From contig JACPWU010000021.1 in assembly GCA_016196885.1 (NCBI GenBank), positions 3,618 through 67,617 of the forward strand: a stretch of DNA of 64,000 bases. The letters run 5' to 3'. The stretch's first letter is position 1. Each line of letters begins with the position of its first letter. The notes below the pieces were generated by a model that saw only the letters and a list, made by a program, of their open reading frames with translations, had not been told where the DNA came from and searched no databases. The DNA is from Chlamydiota bacterium. GTDB taxonomy: Bacteria > Auribacterota > JACPWU01. Made by a program: the position numbers and the translations under genes. Shown here one piece after another: positions 14,347 to 61,682 of the stretch.

Positions 14347-14410
14347 ACACACCTCCTTTTCCGAGCCGGCGGCTTTTAATATTTAACAGTTATACGCCCT
14401 CGATGGCCCT

Positions 14411-14515
14411 GGTAGTCGCCCGATTCATCGGGCAATCCCTTGTAGTCACCCGATTCATCGGGCAAGATCCATGCAAGGGGCAAGGGACACGGCCCCATCC
14501 ATGGGGCGACTGCAA
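14411..14515. repeat. Degenerate A-family fragment in the ssb-rpsF intergenic region
   Basis: Two tandem cgcccgattcatcgggcaa hairpin modules plus ccatggggcgactgc. Confidence 0.5.
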
Positions 14516-18810: not shown

Positions 18811-18881
18811 TGCCCGGTGGTGTAATGGTAACACAGCAGTTTTTGGAGCTGCTTTTCTAGGTTCGAATCCTAGCCGGGCAG
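18811..18881 (+). tRNA. tRNA-Gln (anticodon UUG)
   Basis: Hand-folded cloverleaf: acceptor tgcccgg/ccgggca with U1-A72 typical of tRNA-Gln, D-stem gtgt/acac, anticodon stem gcagt/gctgc with loop ttTTGga, T-arm ctagg-ttcgaat-cctag. Confidence 0.8.
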
Positions 18882-35290: not shown

Positions 35291-35329
35291 CAACCTTTGA
35301 ACTTTTGAACCCTTAAACTTTTGAACCTT
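35291..35329. repeat. Tandem-repeat element H1 (GGTTCAAAAGTT units) in the sufB-sufC intergenic region
   Basis: caacctttgaacttttgaacccttaaacttttgaacc. Confidence 0.45.
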
Positions 35330-35332
35330 TTT

Positions 35333-36766
35333 TTACCCCACACTTCCTTCCAAACTCACACCCAAAAGTTTCGAGGCTTCCACCGCAAACTCCATCGGTA
35401 AATTGCGAAACACCTCTTTACAAAATCCATTCACAATCATGTTCACCGCATTCTCACTGGAAATCCCCCGCTGCTTACAATAAAAAAGCTGCTCATCACT
35501 GATTTTTGAGGTGGATGCCTCATGCCCTACCTTGGAAGAGTTATTCTGGACCTCGATATAAGGAAAGGTGTTGGCCGCACAGTCGCTTCCCAAAAGCAAT
35601 GAATCGCATTGCGTGTAATTGCGTGCATTTTGGGCTTTTGGAAGCACCTTCACCAATCCCCGATAGGTGTTATTGCCATGCCGTGCTGAAATCCCTTTTG
35701 AAATAATGGTGCTTCGCGTATTTTTCCCCACATGAATCATTTTGGTTCCCGTATCGGCCTGCTGATAATTGTTGCAGAGCGCCACCGAATAAAATTCGCC
35801 CACCGAATCATCTCCTATCAAAATCACACTCGGATATTTCCACGTAATGGCCGAACCTGTTTCCACCTGAGTCCAGGTGATTTTAGAATTTCGTCCCACA
35901 CACTTTCCTCGCTTCGTCACAAAATTATAAATACCACCTTTGCCTTCTTTATCACCCGAATACCAATTCTGCACCGTCGAATATTTGATAGAGGCCTTTT
36001 CCTGAGCCACCAACTCCACCACCGCCGCGTGAAGCTGATTTGTATCTCTGAGGGGTGCAGAGCAACCTTCAAGATAACTTACATAGCTTCCCTCTTCAGC
36101 CACAATCAACGTCCGTTCAAATTGCCCCGTCTCGGCGGCATTGATTCTGAAATAAGTAGATAGCTCCATCGGACAGCGCACCCCTTTGGGGATATAACAA
36201 AAAGAACCATCACTAAACACCGCGGCATTTAAGGCCGCATAAAAATTATCCGTATAAGGAACCACGGAACCCAAATATTTTTGAATGAGATCTGGATGAT
36301 TTTGAACCGCCTCTGAAAAAGAACAAAAAATAACCCCTGCCTTGGACAATTGCTCTTTGAAAGTCGTGGCAACCGAAACGCTGTCAAACACCGCATCCAC
36401 GGCCACACCCGCCAGTCGCTTTTGCTCTTCAAGCGGAATGCCCAATTTCTCAAATGTGGTGAGCAACTCTTTATCCACTTCCTCAAGGCTGTTTAATTTT
36501 GGTTTTTTCTTGGGCGCGGAATAATAAATGATGTCCTGATAATCAATTTTGGGGTAATGCACATGCGACCAGCTAGGTTCTTTCATCGTCAACCAATGCC
36601 GATAGGCCTTCAAACGCCACTCCAACATAAAAGAAGGCTCGTTCTTCTTCTGGGAAATGAGACGAATCACATCCTCACTCAACCCTTTCGGAAGAGTATC
36701 CACCTCCATGGGTGTCACAAAACCATATTTGTATTCTTGTTGAATGAATGAATCTGGCTTATTCAT
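35333..36766 (-). CDS. sufB: Fe-S cluster assembly protein SufB
   Basis: 477 aa; highly conserved SufB C-terminal region. Confidence 0.85.
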
Positions 36767-51396: not shown

Positions 51397-51844
51397 TTGT
51401 AGTCGCCCCATTTATGGGGCCATGCATGGATTGCCCGATAAATCGGGCGACTACGCTTGACGGATCAAGAATACTTGAGCCAAGTCCATATGCCAAAATT
51501 TATTTCTCCGACAGGCTCCTAGCCCGCATTTCTCATCAGATTTCGTCGCGAGTCCGCCTAAGGTGGATTGGAGGGGAGGTTGCACGACTGAGGCCATGCG
51601 AGGCATACCTTACAGTATGTTGAGCGTGGCCGACCGAGTCTGCACGGAGGGACGAAGCGGAATCGGAGAAGAGCGGCAGAAATCTGACGAGAAACGGCCA
51701 TGACTTTCAGTCACAAAGGGGGATGAAAATCACCCTTGTAGTCGCCCCATTTATGGGGCTGCCCGATGAATCGGGCGACTACAAGTAATCATAACTTATT
51801 GTATAAAAATAAGTAAAGACTATTTTCAGATGAAACGCGGGCTA
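51397..51844. repeat. Composite repeat C2 (inverted-arm copy of C1, with an extra A-core hairpin at its left end)
   Basis: Core gcatttctcatcagatttcg...ttacagtatgttgagcgtggccgacc...gcagaaatctgacgagaaac followed by the reverse-complemented C1 arm; overlaps the stop of the hypothetical secreted-protein gene. Confidence 0.65.
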
Positions 51845-52498
51845 AAACCCTGCCTGAGATTCTAACTGCTTCTGCCAGGCTAGGCGAATCATTTCTAATT
51901 TTCTCAAAATATCTTGGAAAGAAGACCCTTGGTCTATCATCATAACCAGTTCATCAATATCTTTCGTCGTCAATCCCAGATTGACACTTCTCGTCTCTTG
52001 TTGGACCCAGGTCACATTTCTGCGAATCAAATCTAAGCTGCCCGGTTTCTCCTCTCTGGAGAAGGACTGGACATAAGAGGCCACACATTCTGCACCTTCT
52101 AAATGCACTCCCAATATAAAAAGGCTTGAAATCTGTGTGCTTAAACTCGCCCACGTGTTTTGTTCAAACTCAATGCTGCCAAGCAAACTCTGTCGAATTT
52201 CTGGAAAAGTGAGCTGATCTAACTGAGATTGAAGCTGAACCAGAGAATTGGCTGGATTTCCCATTCTTCGAGAAGTATCAATGCTCCAGGAAAGATTTCG
52301 CTTGATTAAATCGAGGGACCCTGGTCTTTCAGCTGTTGAAAAAGCCTCATTCAAAGAAGCGGTGCACTCGGCCCCTCCCAATTGTATCCCCAAAATAAAC
52401 ACGTCCCTCTTCATTTCATCAGCCAAGGATTTTCCAGGATGAAAAACAGCAAGGGTTAGAACCAAAAATAAAGCCTCAACAAAGGATTTAAGTTTCAA
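51842..52498 (-). CDS. Secreted hypothetical protein with internal ~95-aa tandem duplication (TTG start with AAAGGAGG SD)
   Basis: Signal peptide MKLKSFVEALFLVLTLAVF; duplicated block ILG(I/V)(Q/H)L(G/E)GAEC(T/V)AS...PGSLDLI(K/R)RN. Confidence 0.45.
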   Translation of the reverse strand: MKLKSFVEALFLVLTLAVFHPGKSLADEMKRDVFILGIQLGGAECTASLNEAFSTAERPGSLDLIKRNLSWSIDTSRRMGNPANSLVQLQSQLDQLTFPEIRQSLLGSIEFEQNTWASLSTQISSLFILGVHLEGAECVASYVQSFSREEKPGSLDLIRRNVTWVQQETRSVNLGLTTKDIDELVMMIDQGSSFQDILRKLEMIRLAWQKQLESQAGF

Positions 52499-52569: not shown

Positions 52570-54036
52570 TTAACTTCCAAAAAAATCATCCAGGGTTAAA
52601 ATGGTATCAAAATAAGCCCCTGTCTTCACTGCTTTTTGAACGCCGTGGGAGGCAATGAGGACTCTGCGAAAACTTTTTTTCTTGAGTTGGAGATGCGTTT
52701 CAAAAAGTTTTATCTTATCCTCAAAAGCATGAACTACTTCCATCCCGACAGGCCTTCTCTGATATTTGATTTCGCAAAGCGTTATCACGTGATCATCCCG
52801 GTCAAAGACAAGATCCATTTGAAAACCAGGATTCTTGTCTTGAGTCTTCCGGTTAAAAAAGACCCCGTGGCGATATCGGACAGATGCAAATCCCAAAAGA
52901 TCGGCAAGGTCTGTATGATGGCTTCTACAAAACCTCTCGAAGGCCAAACCCAACCATTTTTGATAACTTGAAACATCGAGTCCCATCCCGGGATTTTCGT
53001 CAAAGTCACCCAGGGTAATACGATTCAGTTGGGGTCGGATAAATTTATTGTAGAATTGAATGTAGTAGTCTCTGATACCGTATCTGACCAGTAGACTTTT
53101 GAAATCAGCGAAATAAGGGGTGTTTCTCTCGATAAAGGTACATCTTTCAAGGTCCTCAAGCACTTTTGTGATCTCGCCGCCAGAACTGATTCCCAGATGA
53201 TGGGCAATTTCATCACGGGTTGAAAATTTTTTGCGGGACAAGAAGTCTAGGATTTTTTGATAATGTTTGTTCGAAGATAAACTGCTCGTAAAAATGCGAT
53301 CGTATTCTCTTACAAAAAGGCCGGTGGAAGAAAATGCGTTTTGGCAAATTCCTAAAAAGACAGAATCCGCTTCTTTAAGATATTTCAAATACTCTGGAAT
53401 TCCGCCCACCGTCAAATAGGCCTCCATGACTTCTTCATGAGATCGGCTTCCAAGAAATGTTTTAACCTCTTTCACGGAAAGTTCTTTCAGGTGAAATTCA
53501 TGCATGGAACGATTGTATAACGCCTTGGAATGCAATACCTTATTAACCAAAAAGGAAGGGGAAGACCCACACAGAATGAGCAAGAGCTTTGGATGATGTC
53601 TAAAATGATTGTCCCAAGCCCACTTCAAATCAGAAATAAATTCATCTTTTTGATCTGCTAGCCACTGAACCTCTTCAAAGTAAAGGGTCCAGATCCCTTT
53701 TCGAAGGGCATCTGCCAGAATTTTGAAAAACTCCATCCAGGTCTCATGTCCGGAAAAAGGGCGTTTCTTTTTTTTAAGGTAATAGCCCAATTGGATATAA
53801 CAACGTTTCAGTTGTTCAGAGCCCTTAAGTCCTTCAACCCCCTCAAATTTCAGGATATTCCGGTCCCGAAAGGTTTGTTCCAAAAGCTCGGTTTTCCCAA
53901 CCCGGCGACGGCCGTACATCACGATGATTTGGGCCTTGGGGGAATGGGCAATCTGGAGGAGCTTTTCTTGTTCCTGCCTTCGTCCAATGAAATTGGAATG
54001 AATGGGTATTTGTTTGGATTTCATAAAAATCGCCAA
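52570..54036 (-). CDS. AAA+ ATPase (archaeal-ATPase-like, PF01637) with C-terminal DUF234 domain
   Basis: Walker A GRRRVGKTEL, DExx-like LLILCGS, C-terminal about 100-aa DUF234-like region. Confidence 0.6.
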   Translation of the reverse strand: MAIFMKSKQIPIHSNFIGRRQEQEKLLQIAHSPKAQIIVMYGRRRVGKTELLEQTFRDRNILKFEGVEGLKGSEQLKRCYIQLGYYLKKKKRPFSGHETWMEFFKILADALRKGIWTLYFEEVQWLADQKDEFISDLKWAWDNHFRHHPKLLLILCGSSPSFLVNKVLHSKALYNRSMHEFHLKELSVKEVKTFLGSRSHEEVMEAYLTVGGIPEYLKYLKEADSVFLGICQNAFSSTGLFVREYDRIFTSSLSSNKHYQKILDFLSRKKFSTRDEIAHHLGISSGGEITKVLEDLERCTFIERNTPYFADFKSLLVRYGIRDYYIQFYNKFIRPQLNRITLGDFDENPGMGLDVSSYQKWLGLAFERFCRSHHTDLADLLGFASVRYRHGVFFNRKTQDKNPGFQMDLVFDRDDHVITLCEIKYQRRPVGMEVVHAFEDKIKLFETHLQLKKKSFRRVLIASHGVQKAVKTGAYFDTILTLDDFFGS

Positions 54037-54123: not shown

Positions 54124-55947
54124 TCATCTCCCGACCCCGCTTTGCTTACGAAGATAAATGAGAAGGGTCGTAATATCCGCGGGTGAAACCCCTGAGATTC
54201 TCGCGGCTTGACCGAGGGAACGGGGCTGAATGGAAGCGAGTTTTTCCTGGGCCTCTCTTCTAAGGCCTTGAATGGAGGCAAAGTCCATCGCAAGGGGTAT
54301 GATTTTATCTTCTAATCTTTGCATTTTCTCTATCGTCTGCTTTTCTCTTTGAATATAACCCTCGTACTTGGCCTCGATTTCGACCTGGCGAATCACATCT
54401 TGAGGGAGGGAACTTGCTTTTCCTTCGAGTCCCAGCAAAGTGGTATAAGAGGACGCGGGCCTTTTTAAAATCTGATAAAGGGTTTCTTGTCCATGTCGTG
54501 TTTTCTTTAAACGATTGAGCTCTTCCTGTATTTTTTCATTTTTTTCTTCCAGGGCTTCAAGGGCCGTTTTAGGAATAAGCCCCATTTTATAGCCGTAATG
54601 CATCAAGCGGGTATCTGCATTGTCTTGCCTTAAGAGAAGCCGATATTCGGCCCGGGAGGTAAACATGCGGTAAGGTTCCTTTGTTCCCTTGGTCACCAAA
54701 TCATCTATCAAAACCCCGATATAGGCCTCCGAGCGTTTTAAAATCAAGGGTTCTTTGCCCAGAAGCTTCAGCCCCGCATTGATCCCAGCCATCAGGCCTT
54801 GAGCCCCTGCTTCCTCATAGCCACTCGTCCCATTGATTTGACCCGCCAAGAAAAGGTTCGAGAGGGTCTTGGTCTCTAAAGTTGCATGAAGCTGCGTGGG
54901 AGGAGCAAAGTCATATTCCACCGCATAACCATAGCGAATGATTTCGGCATGCTCGAGCCCTGTAATCGAATGAACAATCTCTTCCTGAACATCTTCAGGT
55001 AAGCTCGTGGAAGAACCATTGATGTAAATTTCATCCGTGTCCAATCCTTCGGGCTCTAAAAAGATCTGATGCTTTAATTTATCTGGAAATCGCATGATTT
55101 TGTCTTCAATCGAAGGACAGTAACGCGGCCCAATTCCTACAATCCTCCCTGAATAGAGCGGAGAGCGATGAATGTTTTTCCGAATCACTTCGGCCGTTCG
55201 ATCGGTCGTATAAGTGATATAGCAAGGAACCTGTAGGAGTCTCTTTTCCACGGGGAAATGAGAAAAGGAATAGGGCTCGGGATCGCCATGCTGAACTTGA
55301 ACTTTCGAGTAATCAATAGACCGCTCACTGATTCGAGGCGGCGTTCCTGTCTTCAAACGCAAGAGTTCAATGCCTGCTTTTTGAAGGCAGTCCGAGAGCC
55401 CGTAAGAAGGAAATTCTCCCGCTCGACCCGCGGCAAAAGAAGATTCTCCCACGTGACATAATCCCTTTAAGAAAGTGCCTGTCGTAATAATGACAATTTT
55501 GCCTTTATAAATCGTTCCTGAATTTGTCTTAACTCCTTCTACTACATTATCTTTTAAAATTAACTCCTCGACAATCACTTGCCTTAAATCCAAATGAGGC
55601 TGCCTCTCAACCACGTGACGCATTTCGATGGAGTATTGCTTTTTATCCGCTTGGGCCCGGGGAGCCCAGACAGCCGGGCCCTTGCTCATGTTGAGCATTC
55701 TAAACTGAATGCTGGTTTTATCCGTGATTTTGGCCATTTCTCCACCCAGGGCATCCATTTCCCTCACCAAATGGCCCTTGGCGATTCCCCCAATCGCCGG
55801 ATTGCAGGGCATTTTGGCCACGGTGTCCAAATTGAGCGTGAAAAGGGCGGTCTCCAGGTTCATCCGGGCCGTGGCCAGAGCCGCCTCACAACCCGCATGG
55901 CCCGCACCAACCACAATAACGTCATAGGTTTTTGGATAGATATACAT
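54124..55947 (-). CDS. mnmG: tRNA uridine-5-carboxymethylaminomethyl modification enzyme MnmG/GidA
   Basis: FAD motif YDVIVVGAGHAGCEAA; track ORF trimmed to MYIYPKTYDV. Confidence 0.85.
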   Translation of the reverse strand: MYIYPKTYDVIVVGAGHAGCEAALATARMNLETALFTLNLDTVAKMPCNPAIGGIAKGHLVREMDALGGEMAKITDKTSIQFRMLNMSKGPAVWAPRAQADKKQYSIEMRHVVERQPHLDLRQVIVEELILKDNVVEGVKTNSGTIYKGKIVIITTGTFLKGLCHVGESSFAAGRAGEFPSYGLSDCLQKAGIELLRLKTGTPPRISERSIDYSKVQVQHGDPEPYSFSHFPVEKRLLQVPCYITYTTDRTAEVIRKNIHRSPLYSGRIVGIGPRYCPSIEDKIMRFPDKLKHQIFLEPEGLDTDEIYINGSSTSLPEDVQEEIVHSITGLEHAEIIRYGYAVEYDFAPPTQLHATLETKTLSNLFLAGQINGTSGYEEAGAQGLMAGINAGLKLLGKEPLILKRSEAYIGVLIDDLVTKGTKEPYRMFTSRAEYRLLLRQDNADTRLMHYGYKMGLIPKTALEALEEKNEKIQEELNRLKKTRHGQETLYQILKRPASSYTTLLGLEGKASSLPQDVIRQVEIEAKYEGYIQREKQTIEKMQRLEDKIIPLAMDFASIQGLRREAQEKLASIQPRSLGQAARISGVSPADITTLLIYLRKQSGVGR

Positions 55948-56029
55948 GTTTTCACCCACACCCATCATCCGTTTGAGTCTGAAAAATAGCAAAAAAAAAC
56001 CGTTTTGAATATGAGGATTTTTTGCTTTT

Positions 56030-56698
56030 TTATTTTGAGGCAATACTAACATCCTTGATTACTTGGGGCAGGTATAAATTCATCCAAGAGGTTTGTTTCT
56101 GAGAAAGAACCTCTTTTGTCCCAATACCCTTTGTCATTTCAAAACAGCCATTCATTTGAATTAAGAGTTCACGGACCTCTAAGCTTTCTGAAAGATTCTC
56201 CAAGGCCTTTCTAAATTCACTCGGGTAACTCGCATGAAGAAGGCATAGGTCATAAATATCTGTAGGTTCAATTCGATCCACAACACAATAGAGTTTCTCC
56301 AGGATCATGTCTTTTTCAGATAAAATCGGGCACCGAAGTTCGGGCTCATAAAGCAATGTGACCGGACGCCAAATTTTTCCAATATCGACTTTTGTTTCAA
56401 GTTTGGGATATCTGATATACAGTTGACAGAAGTGTTCTCCACGACGCGTAATTCTATATTTAACCTTCTCAAGATTACACTGCTTCACAAGCTCAAGCAT
56501 CGCCTTGTAACTAGAGATTTCTTCTTTCGGGGAGAGAATATCTACGTCCTTACTGTTGCGCGCATGTTGTGGAAGTCTTAAGGTTAGCCACGTTCCTCCC
56601 GAGAGGGCATAATTTTTACGGATGAGCGGACATTTTAAAATCCATTTGGCAAGTGATAAAATATCTTGCCTTGAAGGCTCTTCAGGCATTTTTTTCAT
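56030..56698 (-). CDS. AbiEii/DUF1814-family nucleotidyltransferase (type IV TA toxin-like)
   Basis: N-terminal motif LSGGTWLTLRL...RNSKDVDIL matches the GGTxL...RxSxDhD signature of AbiEii-type NTases; overlaps the stop of the upstream HTH gene. Confidence 0.55.
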   Translation of the reverse strand: MKKMPEEPSRQDILSLAKWILKCPLIRKNYALSGGTWLTLRLPQHARNSKDVDILSPKEEISSYKAMLELVKQCNLEKVKYRITRRGEHFCQLYIRYPKLETKVDIGKIWRPVTLLYEPELRCPILSEKDMILEKLYCVVDRIEPTDIYDLCLLHASYPSEFRKALENLSESLEVRELLIQMNGCFEMTKGIGTKEVLSQKQTSWMNLYLPQVIKDVSIASK

Positions 56699-57086
56699 AA
56701 AGACCTCGAATCAGACTTTTGCGAAAAATTCTTTCAAGAAGGGTTCTTCCTTTGCGCACATATTTTTCCGCCACAGACCTTTGAATCATTTTAGGAATGA
56801 GTTGTGGGGCACGCCTAAAAAGAATGGGAATCATTTCTTCTTTCGATGGGATTGATTGTTCTCTCCAGAAGATTGAATAGGGAGCTATTTTTTGAGGTCT
56901 TCCAGAGGAATAGTGTCCTTGAATTTTTTTAAAACGATCGAAAGAAGCTAATGGAATAAACCAGGTATGTCCCTTTTTCAAACATTGCTTCAAGCGCTTT
57001 TCCCGGCAATATCGAGCCATCAAGGACTTCGTAATTCCTAATCTTGCCGCTGCCTCAGTGGCTGTTAAGAAAACATTCTTCATCAT
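56682..57086 (-). CDS. HTH (excisionase/HTH_17-like) DNA-binding protein, putative antitoxin/regulator partner of the NTase
   Basis: MMKNVFLTATEAAARLGITKSLMARYCREKRL helix-turn-helix; track ORF (TTG start inside repeat H2) trimmed to the internal Met pair. Confidence 0.45.
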   Translation of the reverse strand: MMKNVFLTATEAAARLGITKSLMARYCREKRLKQCLKKGHTWFIPLASFDRFKKIQGHYSSGRPQKIAPYSIFWREQSIPSKEEMIPILFRRAPQLIPKMIQRSVAEKYVRKGRTLLERIFRKSLIRGLYEKNA

Positions 57087-57201
57087 GATTTTATTATACA
57101 CTATTTTGAACAATTTTTGAAAAATTTTGGGATGGTAGACTTTGGTCAAATGGACTGGATTTGATTCGGGAATTTTAAAGGTTAAAGATTTTAAGTATTT
57201 T

Positions 57202-57242
57202 AACCCTTGGACGTTTGAACTTTTCAACCCTTAAACTTTTTT
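57202..57242. repeat. Element H2 between the HTH gene and mnmE
   Basis: aacccttggacgtttgaacttttcaacccttaaacttttttt, similar to H1. Confidence 0.45.
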
Positions 57243-58652
57243 TCACTTCCCAATGCAAAACCTCGAGAAAAGGGTCTGGATCATTTCTTCATTGACAGAG
57301 GTGCCCAATAATTCATCCCATTTCAGAAGGGCGCTGTGAAGATCGCTGGAGATCAAGTCATCTCCTAAATTGTTTTCTAAGGCGTTCTGGGCACTCCTCA
57401 AGTCTTTCTCCACCGCCTGCAAGATTTCTTGATGCCGGGCGTTGACGAGGTATTGGCATTCTAAAATGTCATTTTTGGATTTCACCCATTTTAGAAGAGC
57501 CTCTTCCAGCGTTTTCAAACCCTGTCCCAAAAGGAGAGAAGTTTCAAAAAAAGGATGGCGAGGAAAGGTTTTTAAAATTTCACTTTTCGAAAAATTTTTG
57601 TTCAAATCCACTTTGTTAAAAATCAACATCGCATCTTTTCCATTGCCCAACCAGGGTTGGACCTTGGTAAGATCAAAAGGGGAGCCAGAGACATCAAAAA
57701 TCCACAAAATTAAATCCGCTTCTTCATATTGATGATGCGTGACTTCAATTCCCTTTTTCTCGACAATGTTTTCGGGTTCTCTCAGGCCCGCCGTGTCTAC
57801 CAAACGCAAGGGAACGCCATTAAAATTCATTTCGTATTCGATAGCATCTCTCGTTGTGCCCGGTAGTTCAGTCACAATGGCCAATTCTTTTTTGGCCAAT
57901 GAATTGAGAAGACTGGATTTTCCAACATTGGGCTCTCCCATGAGAACCCCTTTAAAACCCTCTTTCAAGATGCGTCGCGTTTTGGCCCCTTTTAAAAGAT
58001 TCTGAATTTCGTCCCTGATTTCTTTTAGAAGTTGAGCGTAATCTCGCGGGGAAACGCCTTGCGGAACATATTCTGGAAAATCAATGTTGGCCTCGGTCTC
58101 GACCATCACGTCAAAAATTTTTTGACGGAGGTTGAGTAATTTTCCAGAGAATTCTCCTTTCAGTTGCTGGAGGGCATATTTTCTTTGCAGTTCGGATTTT
58201 GCCTGAATCAAATCTATAACGGCCTCTGCCTGAGAAAGGTCTAAGCGGCCATTTAAAAAGGCCCTTTGGGTGAATTCTCCTGGCCGGGCTAGGCGGGCCC
58301 CTTTTTCCAAGATGAGCGACAGAATTCTTTGAGCCAGATAGGGGCTTCCGTGGAGATAAATTTCAAAAGAGTCTTCGCAGGTGTAACTTTTGGGAGCTTT
58401 AAATACACACCCCATTCCTTCATCCAAAGCCTCTTTCTCATCCGAAACGGATCCCAAATACAAGCGCTGAATCTCAAAGGAAGAAGGGGATTTGCCTGAG
58501 GACGTCCTGAAAATTTGATCGGCGATCATGAGAGAAGCGCTCCCGCTCAAGCGAAGCACGGCCAAAGCGCCTTCTCCAAGAGGCGTGGCAAGGGCCACAA
58601 TGGTGTCTTCAGCAATATTGGAGACATCTTTATTTTTCATGCCCATTTCCAT
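57243..58652 (-). CDS. mnmE: tRNA modification GTPase MnmE/TrmE
   Basis: G1 GEPNVGKSSL, G3 DTAG, G4 NKVD, C-terminal CIGK. Confidence 0.85.
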   Translation of the reverse strand: MEMGMKNKDVSNIAEDTIVALATPLGEGALAVLRLSGSASLMIADQIFRTSSGKSPSSFEIQRLYLGSVSDEKEALDEGMGCVFKAPKSYTCEDSFEIYLHGSPYLAQRILSLILEKGARLARPGEFTQRAFLNGRLDLSQAEAVIDLIQAKSELQRKYALQQLKGEFSGKLLNLRQKIFDVMVETEANIDFPEYVPQGVSPRDYAQLLKEIRDEIQNLLKGAKTRRILKEGFKGVLMGEPNVGKSSLLNSLAKKELAIVTELPGTTRDAIEYEMNFNGVPLRLVDTAGLREPENIVEKKGIEVTHHQYEEADLILWIFDVSGSPFDLTKVQPWLGNGKDAMLIFNKVDLNKNFSKSEILKTFPRHPFFETSLLLGQGLKTLEEALLKWVKSKNDILECQYLVNARHQEILQAVEKDLRSAQNALENNLGDDLISSDLHSALLKWDELLGTSVNEEMIQTLFSRFCIGK

Positions 58653-58674: not shown

Positions 58675-59082
58675 TCATCGTGTCAGCCATTCCTTTAGAA
58701 AGTCTGCGGGAGATCGGACATGGACTCCCAACTTTTTCGCGGCATGAAAATGTCTTGCATTGCCCGTGACCAGGACCTCCACATGGCCCGTGACAGCCAC
58801 CTCGATGAAGGCACGGTCCGTCTCATCCAAAAACCGATCAGGGATGACTTGTGGCAAAACCAGCAGTGCCTGGTCTAACAAGGCATCCAAAAAGTCGTCA
58901 ACACTTTGATTAGAAAGGGAAAACTTTCCACGGGTGAGAACTTCACGATACTCATTGCAAATGCGATCGTCCACGCAAAGTTCCACATCACCTCGTAAGA
59001 GGAGTTGAACAACTCGATGGCAAGTCCCACCTGGTGTGAGAATGGACGACACCAAAACATTTGTATCTAGAACAATCCTCAT
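58675..59082 (-). CDS. PIN-domain ribonuclease-type toxin
   Basis: MRIVLDTNVLVSS with conserved acidic residues; ATGA overlap with the upstream antitoxin stop. Confidence 0.6.
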   Translation of the reverse strand: MRIVLDTNVLVSSILTPGGTCHRVVQLLLRGDVELCVDDRICNEYREVLTRGKFSLSNQSVDDFLDALLDQALLVLPQVIPDRFLDETDRAFIEVAVTGHVEVLVTGNARHFHAAKKLGVHVRSPADFLKEWLTR

Positions 59083-59375
59083 GGTGAAGGATGCCGTCTT
59101 CCTCTTCGAACTTGCTGAATCCACCCTTCGATCTGTGTCTTGCTCAGCCGATTCAACCCCTTTCGTCTGGCCTCTTCCTGTAGTTTAATCAAAGCGGCCA
59201 TACCCCGAGCTTGACGCCAAACACGCAAGGTTTGTTCGAAGGATCTCTCATTCAGAGGCGCGAGCAATCCCATGGGTTTACCTCTGGATGTCAATACCAG
59301 CTCTCTTTCTTCCTTTAGCATTCGCCACACAGAGCCAGGGTGGAGACGAAATTCTCTGACCGGTACGAATTTCAT
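59079..59375 (-). CDS. Phd/YefM-like antitoxin
   Basis: MKFVPVREFRLHPGSVWRMLKEERELVLTSRGKPMGLL is a typical Phd N-terminus; trimmed from the track ORF. Confidence 0.55.
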   Translation of the reverse strand: MKFVPVREFRLHPGSVWRMLKEERELVLTSRGKPMGLLAPLNERSFEQTLRVWRQARGMAALIKLQEEARRKGLNRLSKTQIEGWIQQVRRGRRHPSP

Positions 59376-59458
59376 AGGCCCTCCATTTCCTACGTAAAGT
59401 CTACATGATGTTATCCTCAAGGTCAACCTCTAAAGATTCACCTACTTGCTAAGATCGT

Positions 59459-59901: not shown

Positions 59902-61569
59902 TCAAGCCCTCTTCTGAATCCGATACTGCTGTAAGATGGTAATCACGGTGTTGGTAATCCAGTAAAGGACGAGGCCTGAGGCAAAGCCGTAGAAGAGGAA
60001 CGTGAGCATCACGGGCATGAAAACCTTCATCATTTTCTGGCTGGGGTCTGAGGGCGTCATTCTCTGTTGCCAAAACATCGCAGCACCATTCAACATGGGA
60101 AGGAAATTGACCGGAAATGTCCCCAGATGAAAAAGGGTATCGGGCCTGGCCAAATCCTTGATCCAAAGGAAATCGGCCCCTCTCAATTCCAGAGAAACCA
60201 TGAGAATTTGATAAAAGGCAATGAAAATGGGCATCTGAACCAGCATGGGCAGACAACCCGCCAGGGGCTTGATGTTGTGCTCTTTGTAGAGGGCCATGGT
60301 CTCTTGCTGGATTTTTTTAGGATTCGAGCCGTGTTTCTTTTTGATTTGATCTAATTTGGGTTTCAAGGCCTGCATTTCCTTCATGGAATGAAAGCTGATG
60401 GCACTGAGCGGATAAAAGAGAAATTTAACAATCAGGGTTAAAACAATAATGGAAATTCCATAATTATGGAAAATGCGGTTGAGGCCATGAAGACTCATCA
60501 CGAAGCCACGACATAAATGTCCCCATAAGCCGTCAAACCCTAAAAGGCTTTCAAAATGATGATTAAAGGATTTAAGGAGATCATAATCCTTGGGGCCCTC
60601 GTACAATAAAAAATGCATTTTCTTCGTCTCATTCGGAGCCAATACGAAAGAGGTCGTGCGAAGTGCACAGGCGTAATAGATTTGGGAATTTTCCTCCACG
60701 CTTTCGGTGATTAAAGAGAAGGCATCCACGTCCAGAGGCTTTGCCAACAGGGTAAAATATTTGCTTTTCATGGCGGCCCAGGAAAGCTCAAAATCCTCGA
60801 CCTTGCGCTCTTTAATGGATCGAATGGATTTTCTCATATAAGATCCGCTGCCCCCAGCCAAGTAAAAGTCGACTTCAAGGGGCTGCAATTCGTCCGTTCC
60901 CGCAACAGCATTTTTGTTGAAGGAAGAGGTACGGTGACTGATTTGCTTCATAAATCCGAGAGAAAGGTCATAGCCTTTGTAGAAGCTGTAGGGCTTCTTG
61001 CGATGGTTGGTGAGAGTGATTTCTAAATCAATGGTATAATTTTCTTTTAAGGTGAATTTCTTTTGGAGCGTGATTTGGTGATCTCGAACTTCAAAGAGCA
61101 CAAAATCCGAACCCCGGTCTGCCACTCGATAGGCTCGAAAAGCATCGTGGGAAAAATCGCTCACCCTCGGCAAAGCACCGGGTTGAACGTCTGGATTTTG
61201 AAAGTCCACCAAGGGGACTTCGCGATCGTGAATGAGTCCTGTTTCTTTCAACGTGAGGGACTTCACGGCCGCCCTCCAACTGGAAAAGGTGACCTTCACC
61301 AAAGAATTTTCAAGGACAATTTCTTGCTCCTCAGGCATGGGAGTTTCATCTACCTTGGGCCCTTGAAGCAGCTCTTCAGAGGGTTTTTCACCCAAAGCCT
61401 TTTCTGAGGAGGGAGTCACTCCTTGAGAGACATTCGAAGTGGGCTGTGGAATGTGCTTGCGATAAAAATAAGACCAGCCGATGGAGATAGCAAAGCAAAG
61501 GGCAAAGGCTAAAATGATGCGCCATCCCATAGAGGGATCATTATCTTGCATCTGTGAATTTTTAGGCAT
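59902..61569 (-). CDS. yidC: Membrane protein insertase YidC
   Basis: Large periplasmic domain plus five C-terminal TM helices; track GTG start at 61650 lies inside repeat J2, so the Met at 61569 is preferred. Confidence 0.8.
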   Translation of the reverse strand: MPKNSQMQDNDPSMGWRIILAFALCFAISIGWSYFYRKHIPQPTSNVSQGVTPSSEKALGEKPSEELLQGPKVDETPMPEEQEIVLENSLVKVTFSSWRAAVKSLTLKETGLIHDREVPLVDFQNPDVQPGALPRVSDFSHDAFRAYRVADRGSDFVLFEVRDHQITLQKKFTLKENYTIDLEITLTNHRKKPYSFYKGYDLSLGFMKQISHRTSSFNKNAVAGTDELQPLEVDFYLAGGSGSYMRKSIRSIKERKVEDFELSWAAMKSKYFTLLAKPLDVDAFSLITESVEENSQIYYACALRTTSFVLAPNETKKMHFLLYEGPKDYDLLKSFNHHFESLLGFDGLWGHLCRGFVMSLHGLNRIFHNYGISIIVLTLIVKFLFYPLSAISFHSMKEMQALKPKLDQIKKKHGSNPKKIQQETMALYKEHNIKPLAGCLPMLVQMPIFIAFYQILMVSLELRGADFLWIKDLARPDTLFHLGTFPVNFLPMLNGAAMFWQQRMTPSDPSQKMMKVFMPVMLTFLFYGFASGLVLYWITNTVITILQQYRIQKRA

Positions 61570-61597
61570 TGGAGTTACCTTGTTTTCTAAAATAAGT

Positions 61598-61682
61598 GAA
61601 AAATGAAAAGTGAACAATGAAAATTTGCCAAGAACTTTAACGAAATTCACTTCTTATTCTTAATTTTTCATTCTTAATTTTT
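61598..61682. repeat. Element J2, yidD-yidC junction
   Basis: gaaaaatgaaaagtgaac...attcttaatttttcattcttaattttt; overlaps the yidD stop and creates the N-terminal GTG extension of the yidC ORF. Confidence 0.5.

What the first reader, a model, noticed from the sequence alone, without database searches (positions are those of the whole stretch)
55948..57242. AbiE-like two-gene module (HTH regulator plus AbiEii/DUF1814 nucleotidyltransferase) inserted between mnmG and mnmE
mnmE and mnmG are adjacent in most bacteria. Here a 1.3-kb insert between them carries two overlapping genes. The downstream product has the GGTxL...R.S.DVDIL signature of AbiEii-type nucleotidyltransferase toxins (type IV TA / abortive infection). 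The upstream product is a small HTH_17-like DNA-binding protein rather than a canonical AbiEi. The tandem-repeat element H2 lies at one edge.
Basis: partly seen in the sequence, partly recalled or inferred. Interest (0 to 1): 0.6.

Follow-up and report, generated by a model that had tools for sequence, protein, structure and literature searches.

The report
MenT/AbiEii-type toxin cassette, new partner
The 1.3-kb stretch between the tRNA-modification genes mnmE and mnmG is a self-contained two-gene toxin–antitoxin-like cassette: a short AbiEii/MenT-family nucleotidyltransferase paired not with the usual AbiEi antitoxin but with a rare, undescribed DNA-binding partner, which makes it an unusual variant of a known kind of system rather than something new in kind.

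Summary
Window 55948-57242 is exactly the spacer between mnmG (start 55947) and mnmE (stop 57243). It carries two overlapping minus-strand genes. One encodes a 222-aa DUF1814/AbiEii nucleotidyltransferase (Pfam 46 bits against a cut-off of 22.5; best fold match MenT1). The other encodes a 134-aa HTH_17 protein.

- The partner is not AbiEi. It is a MerR/excisionase-type wHTH, then a GRP linker, then a roughly 70-aa helical C-terminal domain with no Pfam or PDB match. That domain turns up in only 11 representative clusters among 1.84 billion proteins. In every relative whose neighbourhood was read it sits beside this NTase subfamily.
- The cassette carries its own sigma-70-like promoter, whose -10 box ends 6-9 nt before the start codon. 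This points to a leaderless mRNA.
- The same cassette lies in unrelated, often TA- or defence-rich neighbourhoods in Chlamydiota, Omnitrophota, Verrucomicrobiota and Lindowbacteria. Only one other Chlamydiae MAG has it at the mnmE–mnmG site.
- All four NTase motifs are invariant, as is a Ser placed like the MenT1 T39 phospho-acceptor.
- Decayed copies have lost the catalytic half but keep the partner.

The most likely function is a tRNA-targeting NTase toxin that its partner both neutralises and autoregulates. This is a new variant of a known kind, of moderate interest.

The parts
57243..58652 (-). mnmE (tRNA modification GTPase). This is the upstream flank and not part of the cassette.
   Evidence: Pfam TrmE_N, MnmE_helical and MMR_HSR1 domains. 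58% aa identity to the L001 orthologue.
57198..57240 (.). Two short direct repeats (TTTTAACCCTTGGACGTTT / TTTCAACCCTTAAACTTTT) immediately 3' of the mnmE stop. It lies outside the conserved cassette.
   Evidence: the repeat finder family D3. The exact 15-mer AACCCTTAAACTTTT recurs at 35308-35322, also just after the stop of a minus-strand gene. It is absent from the L001 spacer.
57093..57121 (-). The cassette's own sigma-70-like promoter: -35 TTCAAA, 17 nt spacer, -10 TATAAT. The -10 box ends 6 nt before the ATG and no Shine-Dalgarno sequence is present, so a leaderless transcript is inferred.
   Evidence: Best promoter-like site in the scan, 10 of 12 matches. A TATAAT or TATATT box ending 6-9 nt before the partner start codon, with TTGAAA/TTGTAA/TTGATA 16-17 nt upstream in most of them, is conserved in 9 loci of at least 3 phyla. 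DNA similarity to L001 begins at 57128.
57103..57129 (.). An 11-nt direct repeat (minus strand ATTTTTCAAAA / ATTGTTCAAAA) overlapping the -35 box and the spacer. It is a candidate operator for the HTH_17 domain (inferred).
   Evidence: TRF period 10-11, 2.3-2.6 copies. The ATT(G/A)TTC box is conserved in the promoter spacer of the Chlamydiae and Omnitrophota-type loci. The nearest folds to the HTH domain are BldC and Xis, which from my own knowledge bind direct repeats.
56682..57086 (-). Partner gene, the putative antitoxin and autoregulator, 134 aa. Residues 6-53 are an HTH_17 winged helix (nt 56928-57071). Residues 59-68 are a disordered linker carrying a GRP motif. Residues 69-132 form the helical C-terminal domain (nt 56685-56882) with invariant W74 R75 E76, R92, P94, T115, R122, L129 and Y130.
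56030..56698 (-). DUF1814/AbiEii/MenT-family nucleotidyltransferase, the putative toxin, 222 aa. Motif I is G34 G35. The R47-x-S49-K50-D51-x-D53 stretch (nt 56540-56560) carries motif II and the candidate phospho-acceptor Ser. Motif III is K103-V-D105. Motif IV is E134 K135...R142...D147..D150. A GAGG Shine-Dalgarno-like sequence lies 5 nt before the ATG, inside the partner gene.
   Evidence: Pfam and PADLOC hits. Invariant columns in an 18-sequence alignment. AF2 pLDDT 87.8. Foldseek best hits are MenT1 8an4_B at E 7.7e-6 and JHP933 4o8s at 9.6e-6. NCBI already names it an 'AbiEii/AbiGii toxin family protein'.
55983..56031 (-). An AT-rich hairpin followed by a U-run just after the NTase stop codon. 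It is a weak terminator-like element and its status is uncertain.
   Evidence: Inverted repeat I5, 14-nt arms, 93% complementary. The fold is no more stable than shuffled sequence, z = -0.41.
54124..55947 (-). mnmG (GidA). This is the downstream flank and not part of the cassette.
   Evidence: Pfam GIDA at 8e-171. 77% aa identity to the L001 orthologue.

Best explanation
This is a self-contained, horizontally mobile two-gene toxin-antitoxin-type cassette of about 1.1 kb, consisting of its own promoter, a partner gene and an NTase gene. It sits in the mnmE-mnmG spacer of an uncultivated Chlamydiota genome.

Shown: the downstream gene encodes a short (222 aa) DUF1814 nucleotidyltransferase with all four catalytic motifs and a MenT1/JHP933-like fold. 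The upstream, overlapping gene encodes a two-domain protein, a MerR/excisionase-type winged HTH joined by a flexible GRP linker to a small helical C-terminal domain. That domain occurs only next to this NTase subfamily.

Inferred, by analogy with MenT1, MenT3 and AbiEii: the NTase adds nucleotides to the 3' CCA end of tRNAs and so blocks aminoacylation and translation. The partner's C-terminal domain binds the NTase and neutralises it, either by occluding the active site or by inducing auto-phosphorylation of S49. S49 occupies the position of the MenT1 T39, MenT3 S78 and AbiEii T65 phospho-acceptors, in the loop just before the DxD strand. The HTH domain represses the cassette's promoter through the direct repeats that overlap the -35 box and spacer. 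The operon is transcribed as a leaderless mRNA, and the NTase is translationally coupled to the partner through a 17-nt overlap and an internal GAGG.

The biological role, whether addiction or stabilisation, stress response, or abortive-infection phage defence, is not resolved.
For: - **NTase family and fold.** PF08843 scores 46 bits against a cut-off of 22.5 and 13 PADLOC AbiEii models match. The AF2 model has pLDDT 87.8, and its best PDB matches are MenT1 and JHP933.
- **Catalytic residues.** G34, G35, R47, S49, D51, D53, K103, E134, K135, R142, D147 and D150 are invariant in 18 clusters. The R-x-S-K-D-x-D spacing equals MenT1 R37-x-T39-R40-D41-x-D43 (PMC11375011). S49 lies in the loop before strand 51-56, as described for the known phospho-acceptors.
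- **Partner linkage.** A partner gene lies immediately upstream in every locus with a full-length NTase and readable upstream sequence, overlapping it by 8-17 nt in most.
- **Rarity of the C-terminal domain.** It was found in only 17 clusters at 90% identity and 11 representatives among 1.84 billion proteins. Contig matching and the loci that were read place these beside this NTase.
- **Modular N-termini.** The N-terminal part is HTH_17, a basic RRKNxHAVALGRLGG segment, or absent, on one constant C-terminal domain. This is the usual architecture of antitoxins: a variable DNA-binding module plus a toxin-specific module.
- **Selection.** dN/dS is 0.08 and 0.11 against the L001 orthologues.
- **Decayed copies.** They lose the catalytic N-terminal half of the NTase but keep the partner. 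There are two independent in-frame fusions, P0040 and P0041, plus the remnants L016 and L022. This is the pattern expected when the enzyme is toxic.
- **Neighbourhoods.** The cassette lies in different contexts rich in TA or defence genes: HicB and DUF433/DUF5615 in L002, PIN in L015, an HNH plus STAND/S8 protease set in L026, and Phd/PIN next door in the window.
- **Promoter.** It is conserved across phyla.
Against: - No experiment exists on this subfamily. Toxicity, tRNA targeting, partner-toxin binding and phosphorylation are all inferred by homology at about 20% identity or less.
- Sequence and profile searches against PDB chains found nothing, and TM-scores to MenT1 and JHP933 are only about 0.5.
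- MenT4 has the same family features yet is not phosphorylated, so an invariant Ser does not prove a type VII mechanism.
- No co-fold of the two proteins could be computed.
- The cassette is absent from the plasmids, phages and viral contigs searched. No integrase, target-site duplication or terminal repeats flank it, so how it moves is unknown.
- It has been kept at the same site in two fairly diverged Chlamydiae genomes (mnmE 58% aa identity) and is better conserved than its flanks. That is less typical of a purely selfish module.
Confidence: 0.72

Rival explanations
1. The cassette is a canonical AbiE (AbiEi/AbiEii) abortive-infection system, as a defence-finder label would suggest.
For: The NTase matches the Pfam AbiEii model and 13 PADLOC AbiEii models. 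The layout is bicistronic with the regulator upstream. Several homologous loci lie among defence-like genes.
Against: The defining AbiEi (COG5340) antitoxin is absent. The partner gives no AbiEi hit in Pfam or PADLOC, and only 1 of 17 family members gives insignificant AbiEi_3_N or AbiEi_4 scores. The NTase is the short 222-aa form and is structurally closest to MenT1, not to the longer AbiEii, MenT3 or MenT4 forms. No phage-defence data exist.
Confidence: 0.08
2. The module is a domesticated housekeeping unit functionally tied to MnmE and MnmG. The NTase would act on tRNAs or another RNA as part of normal tRNA metabolism, and the HTH protein would be its regulator. The position between the two tRNA-modification genes would then be meaningful.
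For: Known relatives of the NTase act on tRNA 3' ends (PMC10435456, PMC7450476). The module sits at the same site in two diverged Chlamydiae MAGs, under purifying selection and with higher DNA identity (80%) than mnmE (65%) or mnmG (72%).
Against: In all other lineages the same cassette lies in unrelated places with no mnm or tRNA genes nearby. It has its own promoter and lower GC than the flanks. The neighbouring spacers of the same conserved cluster are also occupied by accessory genes, Phd/PIN and ATPases, and different ones in the two genomes. Decayed copies exist. The family is very rare.
Confidence: 0.06
3. The NTase is a non-toxic small-molecule nucleotidyltransferase, for example an ANT(2'')-like aminoglycoside-modifying enzyme, and the HTH protein is only its transcriptional regulator.
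For: Foldseek also returns ANT(2'')-Ia at E 2.4e-4 to 1e-3. ANT(2'')-Ia is counted within the wider DUF1814 superfamily in the literature.
Against: MenT1 and JHP933 score better. The motif IV K...R...D..D and the R-x-S-x-D-x-D loop are of the MenT/AbiEii type. A partner-specific C-terminal domain that occurs without any DNA-binding domain (P0038, P0039, P0043) makes no sense for a pure transcription factor. The selective loss of the catalytic half with retention of the partner points to toxicity.
Confidence: 0.07
4. The region is a remnant of an integrated mobile element, and the HTH_17 protein is that element's excisionase (recombination directionality factor) rather than an antitoxin.
Against: No integrase, att-like repeats or other element genes lie within the spacer or next to it, and there is no tRNA gene nearby. 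The HTH is replaceable or dispensable while the C-terminal domain and NTase stay constant. The pair moves as a two-gene unit.
Confidence: 0.04

Closest known systems
MenA1-MenT1 (Rv0078B-Rv0078A) of Mycobacterium tuberculosis, with a COG4849-type short DUF1814 toxin
   Same: The toxin is a short NTase of about 190-220 aa with the same fold; it is the best PDB match, 8an4_B at E 7.7e-6. The R-x-(S/T)-(K/R)-D-x-D active-site loop has identical spacing, and motif IV carries a Lys. A small helical antitoxin module is encoded upstream and is unrelated to AbiEi. Stand-alone 73-82-aa versions of the partner domain exist, comparable in size to the 68-aa MenA1 (PMC10435456).
   Different: There is no detectable sequence similarity between the toxins at the profile level. 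The partner's C-terminal domain gives no match to any PDB chain, MenA1 included. It is predicted as a 4-5-helix bundle rather than a two-helix V (PMC10435456). Here the partner usually carries a DNA-binding domain, which MenA1 lacks.
AbiEi-AbiEii (Lactococcus lactis, Streptococcus agalactiae) and MenA3-MenT3 / MenA4-MenT4, the COG5340-COG2253 pairs
   Same: It is a bicistronic operon with the regulator/antitoxin first and the DUF1814 NTase second. The antitoxin has an N-terminal winged HTH and a C-terminal antitoxicity domain. Negative autoregulation through promoter repeats is expected. There is a Ser/Thr phospho-acceptor next to the DxD motif.
   Different: The partner is not COG5340/AbiEi. 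Its HTH is of the MerR/excisionase HTH_17 type, it is about half the size (134 aa against about 200), and its C-terminal domain is an orphan. The toxin is about 60-80 aa shorter than AbiEii. The promoter gives a probable leaderless mRNA.
JHP933 of Helicobacter pylori, a DUF1814 NTase from a plasticity zone
   Same: It is the second-best structural match (4o8s and 4ok0, E about 1e-5, TM about 0.53) and is of similar length. It is also carried on horizontally acquired DNA (own knowledge).
   Different: Sequence identity is 13-15%. No cognate antitoxin of the type seen here is described for it.
Classical type II TA operons with modular antitoxins (DNA-binding domain plus toxin-binding domain)
   Same: The genes overlap and the antitoxin comes first. 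DNA-binding modules are swapped on a constant toxin-specific module. The cassette sits in TA or defence islands. Toxin-inactivated remnants keep the antitoxin.
   Different: The toxin is an NTase of the family whose studied members are neutralised by induced auto-phosphorylation (type VII) rather than by simple sequestration. Which mode applies here is unknown.

Membership tests
DUF1814 / AbiEii / MenT nucleotidyltransferase superfamily (PF08843) | Match to the family HMM above the curated threshold | tested here: met
   PF08843 at E 7.7e-12, 46.1 bits against a cut-off of 22.5, covering residues 25-167. PADLOC AbiEii PDLC02298 at 4e-10. All 18 homologue clusters carry PF08843.
DUF1814 / AbiEii / MenT nucleotidyltransferase superfamily (PF08843) | Pol-beta-type NTase motifs I (hG[GS]), II ([DE]x[DE]) and III (h[DE]h), plus the family-specific motif IV (K...R...D..D) | tested here: met
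   G34 G35, D51-V-D53, V104-D105-I106 (D or E across the family), and E134 K135 ... R142 ... D147 .. D150. All are invariant or conservatively replaced in alignment A1. The motif definitions are from PMC11375011 and PMC3985639.
DUF1814 / AbiEii / MenT nucleotidyltransferase superfamily (PF08843) | Fold shared with solved members (MenT1, JHP933) | tested here: met
   The AF2 model has pLDDT 87.8. Top Foldseek PDB hits are MenT1 8an4_B (E 7.7e-6) and JHP933 4o8s/4ok0 (about 1e-5), with TM about 0.5.
DUF1814 / AbiEii / MenT nucleotidyltransferase superfamily (PF08843) | Nucleotidyl transfer to tRNA 3' ends, and toxicity on expression | not testable with these tools
   This needs expression and biochemistry. 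The only indirect support is the recurrent loss of the catalytic half with the partner retained.
AbiE system (AbiEi + AbiEii) | Cognate antitoxin of the AbiEi / COG5340 family (AbiEi_1/3/4 Pfam models; PADLOC AbiEi) | tested here: not met
   The partner hits only HTH_17 and weaker HTH models in Pfam at E<=0.1 and only 'mad1' in PADLOC at E<=1. Across 17 family members, AbiEi_3_N and AbiEi_4 each hit one member, at E 0.022 and 0.14.
AbiE system (AbiEi + AbiEii) | Bicistronic operon with the antitoxin/regulator gene upstream of the NTase gene | tested here: met
   The genes overlap by 17 nt on the same strand, and the arrangement is conserved in all the full loci read.
AbiE system (AbiEi + AbiEii) | Protection against phage by abortive infection | not testable with these tools
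   No data exist. The host is an uncultivated Chlamydiota MAG.
MenAT1-type pair (MenA1 + MenT1) | Antitoxin homologous to MenA1 | tested here: not met
MenAT1-type pair (MenA1 + MenT1) | Ser/Thr phospho-acceptor two residues before the first Asp of the DxD motif, on the loop preceding that strand | tested here: met
   S49 is invariant within R47-N-S49-K50-D51-V-D53 and lies in the loop 42-50 before strand 51-56. MenT1 has R37, T39, R40, D41 and D43. Actual phosphorylation was not tested.
Excisionase / recombination directionality factor (HTH_17, Xis-type) | Small stand-alone wHTH protein encoded next to an integrase within an element bounded by att sites | tested here: not met
   The fold matches Xis, RdfS and BldC. 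But the protein carries an extra 70-aa domain, and there is no integrase or flanking repeat in or near the spacer or in the homologous loci.

The most novel reading that the evidence does not exclude
The cassette may no longer be merely a selfish toxin-antitoxin insert in this chlamydial lineage. It may have been retained at the mnmE-mnmG site because its tRNA-directed NTase is functionally coupled to the MnmE/MnmG tRNA-modification pathway, for example by sensing or marking tRNAs when U34 modification fails. Its orphan C-terminal partner domain would then be a fourth, structurally unrelated class of MenT/AbiEii antitoxin that switches the enzyme off by inducing auto-phosphorylation of S49.
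Probability: 0.07. Interest if true: 0.7.

Novelty: new variant of a known kind. Interest (0 to 1): 0.38.

Why it matters
DUF1814 NTase toxins (AbiEii, MenT1-4) are among the most widespread TA and defence toxins. Their control mechanism is under active revision, from type IV to antitoxin-induced auto-phosphorylation, or type VII. So far three antitoxin families are recognised for them: COG5340, COG4861 and MenA1.

This cassette adds a further antitoxin type that is unrelated in sequence and apparently in fold. It comes in three architectures: HTH_17 plus the C-terminal domain, a basic N-terminal segment plus the C-terminal domain, and the C-terminal domain alone. It is paired with a compact toxin that keeps the phospho-acceptor loop. 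That makes it a convenient natural test of whether induced auto-phosphorylation is a general property of the toxin fold, independent of the antitoxin's structure.

The conserved leaderless promoter and the clean domain-level decay products are useful secondary observations.

The finding does not change the picture of what such systems are. The NTase is already labelled as an AbiEii/AbiGii-family toxin in public annotation.

Tried and rejected
- **PDB by sequence.** Single-sequence and profile searches of PDB chains with the NTase found nothing meaningful. The same was true of the partner and its C-terminal domain. Only the fold comparison linked the NTase to MenT1 and JHP933.
- **Mobile-element carriage.** There are no relatives in IMG/VR viral contigs or phage genomes. 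Plasmids gave only one distant AbiEii, at 26% identity. There is no evidence of a phage or plasmid vehicle.
- **Insertion scars.** No convincing target-site duplication or terminal inverted repeats flank the cassette. The only tRNA gene in the window is at 18811.
- **Non-coding RNAs.** Rfam hits are all far below gathering scores. The hairpins after the mnmE and NTase stops are no more stable than shuffled sequence. An RNA antitoxin is therefore rejected.
- **Empty-site comparison.** I could not retrieve a related genome with an unoccupied mnmE-mnmG spacer.
- **dS as evidence of recent transfer.** The module's dS (about 1.1-1.2) is lower than that of the flanks (1.8-2.8). All values are saturated and GC3 differs between genes, so I draw no conclusion about recent transfer.
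- **Association with AAA_14/DUF4143 ATPases.** Such ATPases are seen near 3-4 loci, but with inconsistent position and orientation. I treat them as co-residents of an accessory-gene hotspot, not as a third component.
Full report
**1. What is there**

All genes in window 51.8-61.7 kb are on the minus strand. In transcription order they are:

| Feature | Coordinates |
|---|---|
| yidC | 59902-61650 |
| Phd/YefM-like gene | 59079-59426 |
| PIN_3 gene | 58675-59124 |
| mnmE | 57243-58652 |
| HTH_17 gene (longest ORF 56682-57227) | 56682-57086 |
| AbiEii-family gene | 56030-56698 |
| mnmG | 54124-55947 |
| ATPase_2/AAA_14 gene | 52570-54036 |
| 218-aa gene | 51842-52498 |

The finding's coordinates, 55948-57242, are exactly the mnmG-start to mnmE-stop spacer.

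- The NTase matches PF08843 at 46.1 bits (cut-off 22.5) and 13 PADLOC AbiEii models.
- The partner matches PF12728 HTH_17 at 33-34 bits (cut-off 27).

The window is from a Chlamydiae MAG. NCBI already names the NTase a 'nucleotidyl transferase AbiEii/AbiGii toxin family protein' and the partner a 'helix-turn-helix domain-containing protein'.

**2. Gene boundaries and expression signals**

Homologues of the partner are 130-134 aa long and begin at the position of MMKNVF. The gene therefore starts at ATG 57086, not at the TTG of the 181-aa ORF, which is also the deposited NCBI protein.

The best promoter-like site in the region is TTCAAA-17 nt-TATAAT at 57121-57093, on the minus strand. Its -10 box ends 6 nt before that ATG. 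The same arrangement is present upstream of the partner gene in nine loci from Chlamydiota, Omnitrophota, Verrucomicrobiota and unassigned metagenome contigs. In each, a TATAAT or TATATT box ends 6-9 nt before the start codon, usually with TTGAAA, TTGTAA or TTGATA 16-17 nt upstream, and there is no Shine-Dalgarno sequence.

I infer that the cassette brings its own promoter and is transcribed as a leaderless or near-leaderless mRNA. This is an inference from conserved geometry, not a mapped transcription start.

The NTase start overlaps the partner's last codons by 17 nt and is preceded by GAGG, which suggests translational coupling.

An 11-nt direct repeat (ATTTTTCAAAA / ATTGTTCAAAA on the minus strand, 57103-57129) overlaps the -35 box and the spacer. 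It is conserved in the other Chlamydiae locus and is the obvious operator candidate.

**3. The NTase**

Eighteen clusters of homologues (51-100% identity) were found among 5.8 billion proteins. Species-representative genomes yielded six loci and JGI metagenomes six more. This is a rare subfamily.

Invariant residues include G34 G35 (motif I), R47, S49, D51, D53 (motif II and its loop), K103 with D/E105 (motif III), and E134, K135, R142, D147, D150 (motif IV). Subfamily-specific features are also invariant: an RRGEHFCQ block, three cysteines (C74, C91, C138) and G193-T-K195.

The AlphaFold model is confident, with pLDDT 87.8 and pTM 0.85. Its best matches among solved structures are MenT1 (8an4_B, E 7.7e-6, 20% identity) and H. 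pylori JHP933 (about 1e-5). ANT(2'')-Ia, FAM46 and Pol X/beta cores come lower down. Sequence and profile searches of PDB chains found nothing, so the relationship is remote.

In MenT1 the nucleotide-binding and catalytic residues are R37, T39 (the phospho-acceptor), R40, D41, D43 and K137 (PMC11375011). The window protein has R47, S49, K50, D51, D53 and K135 with the same spacing. S49 lies in the loop immediately before the DxD strand. That is where the phospho-acceptors of MenT1, MenT3 (S78) and AbiEii (T65) sit (bioRxiv 10.64898/2026.01.19.700257).

**4. The partner**

The model (pLDDT 85) shows three parts: an N-terminal beta-alpha-alpha-beta-beta-alpha winged helix (residues 6-58), a disordered linker carrying a conserved GRP(R/K) motif (59-68), and a compact helical C-terminal domain (69-132, pLDDT above 90).

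The C-terminal domain is the constant part of the family. Its signature is FWRE...RAPxLIP...GRTxLER..RK....LY, with W74, R75, E76, R92, P94, T115, R122, L129 and Y130 invariant. The N-terminal part varies:
- HTH_17 in most members;
- a basic RRKNxHAVALGRLGG...ATKG segment in the Lindowbacteria-type loci and in P0033, P0035 and P0042;
- nothing at all in P0038, P0039 and P0043, which are 73-82 aa long.

An indexed search found only 17 clusters with this domain. An exhaustive HMMER scan of 1.84 billion representatives found only 11. Wherever context was read, the gene lies directly upstream of a member of this NTase subfamily.

A variable DNA-binding head on a constant, toxin-linked tail is the standard anatomy of an antitoxin. 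The AbiEi family is excluded by Pfam and PADLOC.

**5. Mobility and history**

The same promoter-plus-two-gene unit sits in these neighbourhoods:
- between a HicB-like gene and a DUF433/DUF5615 pair (L002);
- beside arginine-biosynthesis genes (L005);
- after a large surface-protein gene and a PIN gene (L007, L014);
- next to an ABC ATPase and an AAA_14/DUF4143 ATPase (L023);
- next to an HNH plus STAND-ATPase/S8-protease set (L026).

Only one other genome, Chlamydiae MAG GCA_016178055.1 (L001), has it between mnmE and mnmG. There an unrelated AAA_14/DUF4143 ATPase gene is additionally wedged between the NTase gene and mnmG.

Identities between the two Chlamydiae loci are as follows.

| Gene | aa identity | DNA identity |
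|---|---|---|
| Partner | 83% | about 80% (whole cassette) |
| NTase | 77% | about 80% (whole cassette) |
| mnmG | 77% | 72% |
| 218-aa gene | 69% | 73% |
| mnmE | 58% | 65% |

dN/dS is 0.08 for the partner and 0.11 for the NTase, though dS is saturated in all genes. Part of the mnmE-proximal spacer is alignable between the two genomes.

The simplest reading is one insertion before the two lineages split, followed by vertical retention under purifying selection.

Three observations fit foreign origin. The cassette's GC is 0.40, against 0.45-0.48 in the flanks and 0.458 for the window. It has its own promoter. The neighbouring spacers of the same conserved yidC-mnmE-mnmG-parAB cluster are occupied by other accessory genes. 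This points to a tolerated insertion hotspot.

I found no scars or recombinase and no phage or plasmid copies, so the means of transfer is unknown. I could not obtain an empty-site relative.

**6. Indirect evidence of toxicity**

Two independent in-frame fusions join an intact partner to the C-terminal helical half of the NTase, starting at about residue 124 and so deleting motifs I-III. They are P0041 (L015/L021, Lindowbacteria, a second copy on the same contig as an intact cassette) and P0040 (L025). L016 and L022 are further NTase remnants.

Loss of the catalytic half with retention of the partner is what selection against a toxic enzyme would produce. It is suggestive, not proof.

**7. Mechanism proposed**

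*Shown:* family membership, fold, motifs, gene linkage, the modular partner, the conserved promoter, mobility and purifying selection.

*Inferred from characterised relatives* (MenT1, MenT3, MenT4 and AbiEii add pyrimidines to tRNA 3' ends and block translation; PMC7450476, PMC10435456):
- the NTase is a tRNA-acceptor-stem nucleotidyltransferase toxin;
- the partner's C-terminal domain binds it and blocks it, by occlusion and/or by triggering auto-phosphorylation of S49;
- the HTH_17 head, possibly helped by the GRP linker in the AT-rich operator, represses the promoter.

Whether the system serves phage defence, stabilisation of the locus or stress-induced growth arrest cannot be decided from sequence.

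**8. Comparison and novelty**

The cassette works like MenAT and AbiE systems, and the toxin is a member of the DUF1814 superfamily. The system is not an AbiE system by the defining criterion of an AbiEi antitoxin, and its partner is not MenA1-like either.

The literature held here recognises COG5340, COG4861 and MenA1 as partner types. A full-text search found no paper linking DUF1814 toxins with HTH_17 or excisionase-type partners.

I therefore rate it a new variant of a known kind: a known toxin family with an undescribed, very rare antitoxin family and a conserved leaderless promoter. Partner swapping among TA families is commonplace, and the toxin is already correctly labelled in public annotation, so the surprise for a specialist is moderate. 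I give it an interest of 0.38.

The position between two tRNA-modification genes is most likely incidental. The possibility of a functional link is kept as the low-probability novel case.

Noticed in passing
window 57198-57240 and 35292-35330: The exact 15-mer AACCCTTAAACTTTT occurs at 57226-57240 and at 35308-35322, the latter inside a small tandem array of period 8/16. Both copies lie immediately after the stop codon of a minus-strand gene (mnmE at 57243, and the ORF ending at 35333). Its function is unknown; on the minus strand it reads as a run of AAGG-containing units.
   Followed up: partly
window 51397-51454, 51736-51783 and 14407-14465; L001 2073-2139: A palindromic element of about 50-58 nt (GTAGTCGCCCCATTTATGGGGC...GCCCGATnAATCGGGCGACTAC) occurs in several intergenic copies. 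It is shared with the other Chlamydiae MAG and looks like a REP- or MITE-like repeat family.
   Followed up: no
window 58675-59426 (minus strand): A second TA-like pair, a Phd/YefM-like gene (59079-59426, weak Pfam hit) overlapping a PIN_3 gene (58675-59124), occupies the yidC-mnmE spacer. The neighbouring spacers of this conserved cluster are therefore also colonised by accessory modules.
   Followed up: partly
window 52570-54036; L001 6672-7937; L023 4215-5384; L022 3610-4863: Stand-alone ATPase genes lie close to the cassette in several genomes, in varying position and orientation. The window has an ATPase_2/AAA_14 type; the other three loci have AAA_14/DUF4143 types. The window and L001 ATPases are unrelated to each other. 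This is probably hotspot co-residence rather than a third component.
   Followed up: partly
L015/L021 (4575-5309) and L025 (1030-1725): There are two independent in-frame fusions of an intact partner to the C-terminal helical half of the NTase. Both begin at about NTase residue 124, and the catalytic domain is precisely deleted. They may simply be decay products, or the partner domain and the NTase helical domain may form a functional unit.
   Followed up: partly
window 57087-57227: The deposited NCBI protein for the partner (P0019, 181 aa) uses the upstream TTG. Homologue lengths and the conserved promoter inside that extension indicate the true product is 134 aa, starting at 57086.
   Followed up: yes
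NTase residues 74, 85-92, 138 and 193-195 (window 56030-56698): The subfamily has invariant features not described for MenT or AbiEii: three cysteines (C74, C91, C138), an RRGEHFCQ block, and a GTK motif in a low-confidence loop (pLDDT below 50 at 189-194). Their role is unexplained.
   Followed up: no
L007/L014, L020, P0033, P0035, P0042: In some partners the HTH_17 head is replaced by a basic segment, (R/K)RKNxHAVALGRLGG..ATKG...ARW, with no Pfam match. In L020 the promoter region then carries a perfect palindrome (ACAATACGACAGCATTGTCGTATTGT), which suggests a different operator type for this head.
   Followed up: no
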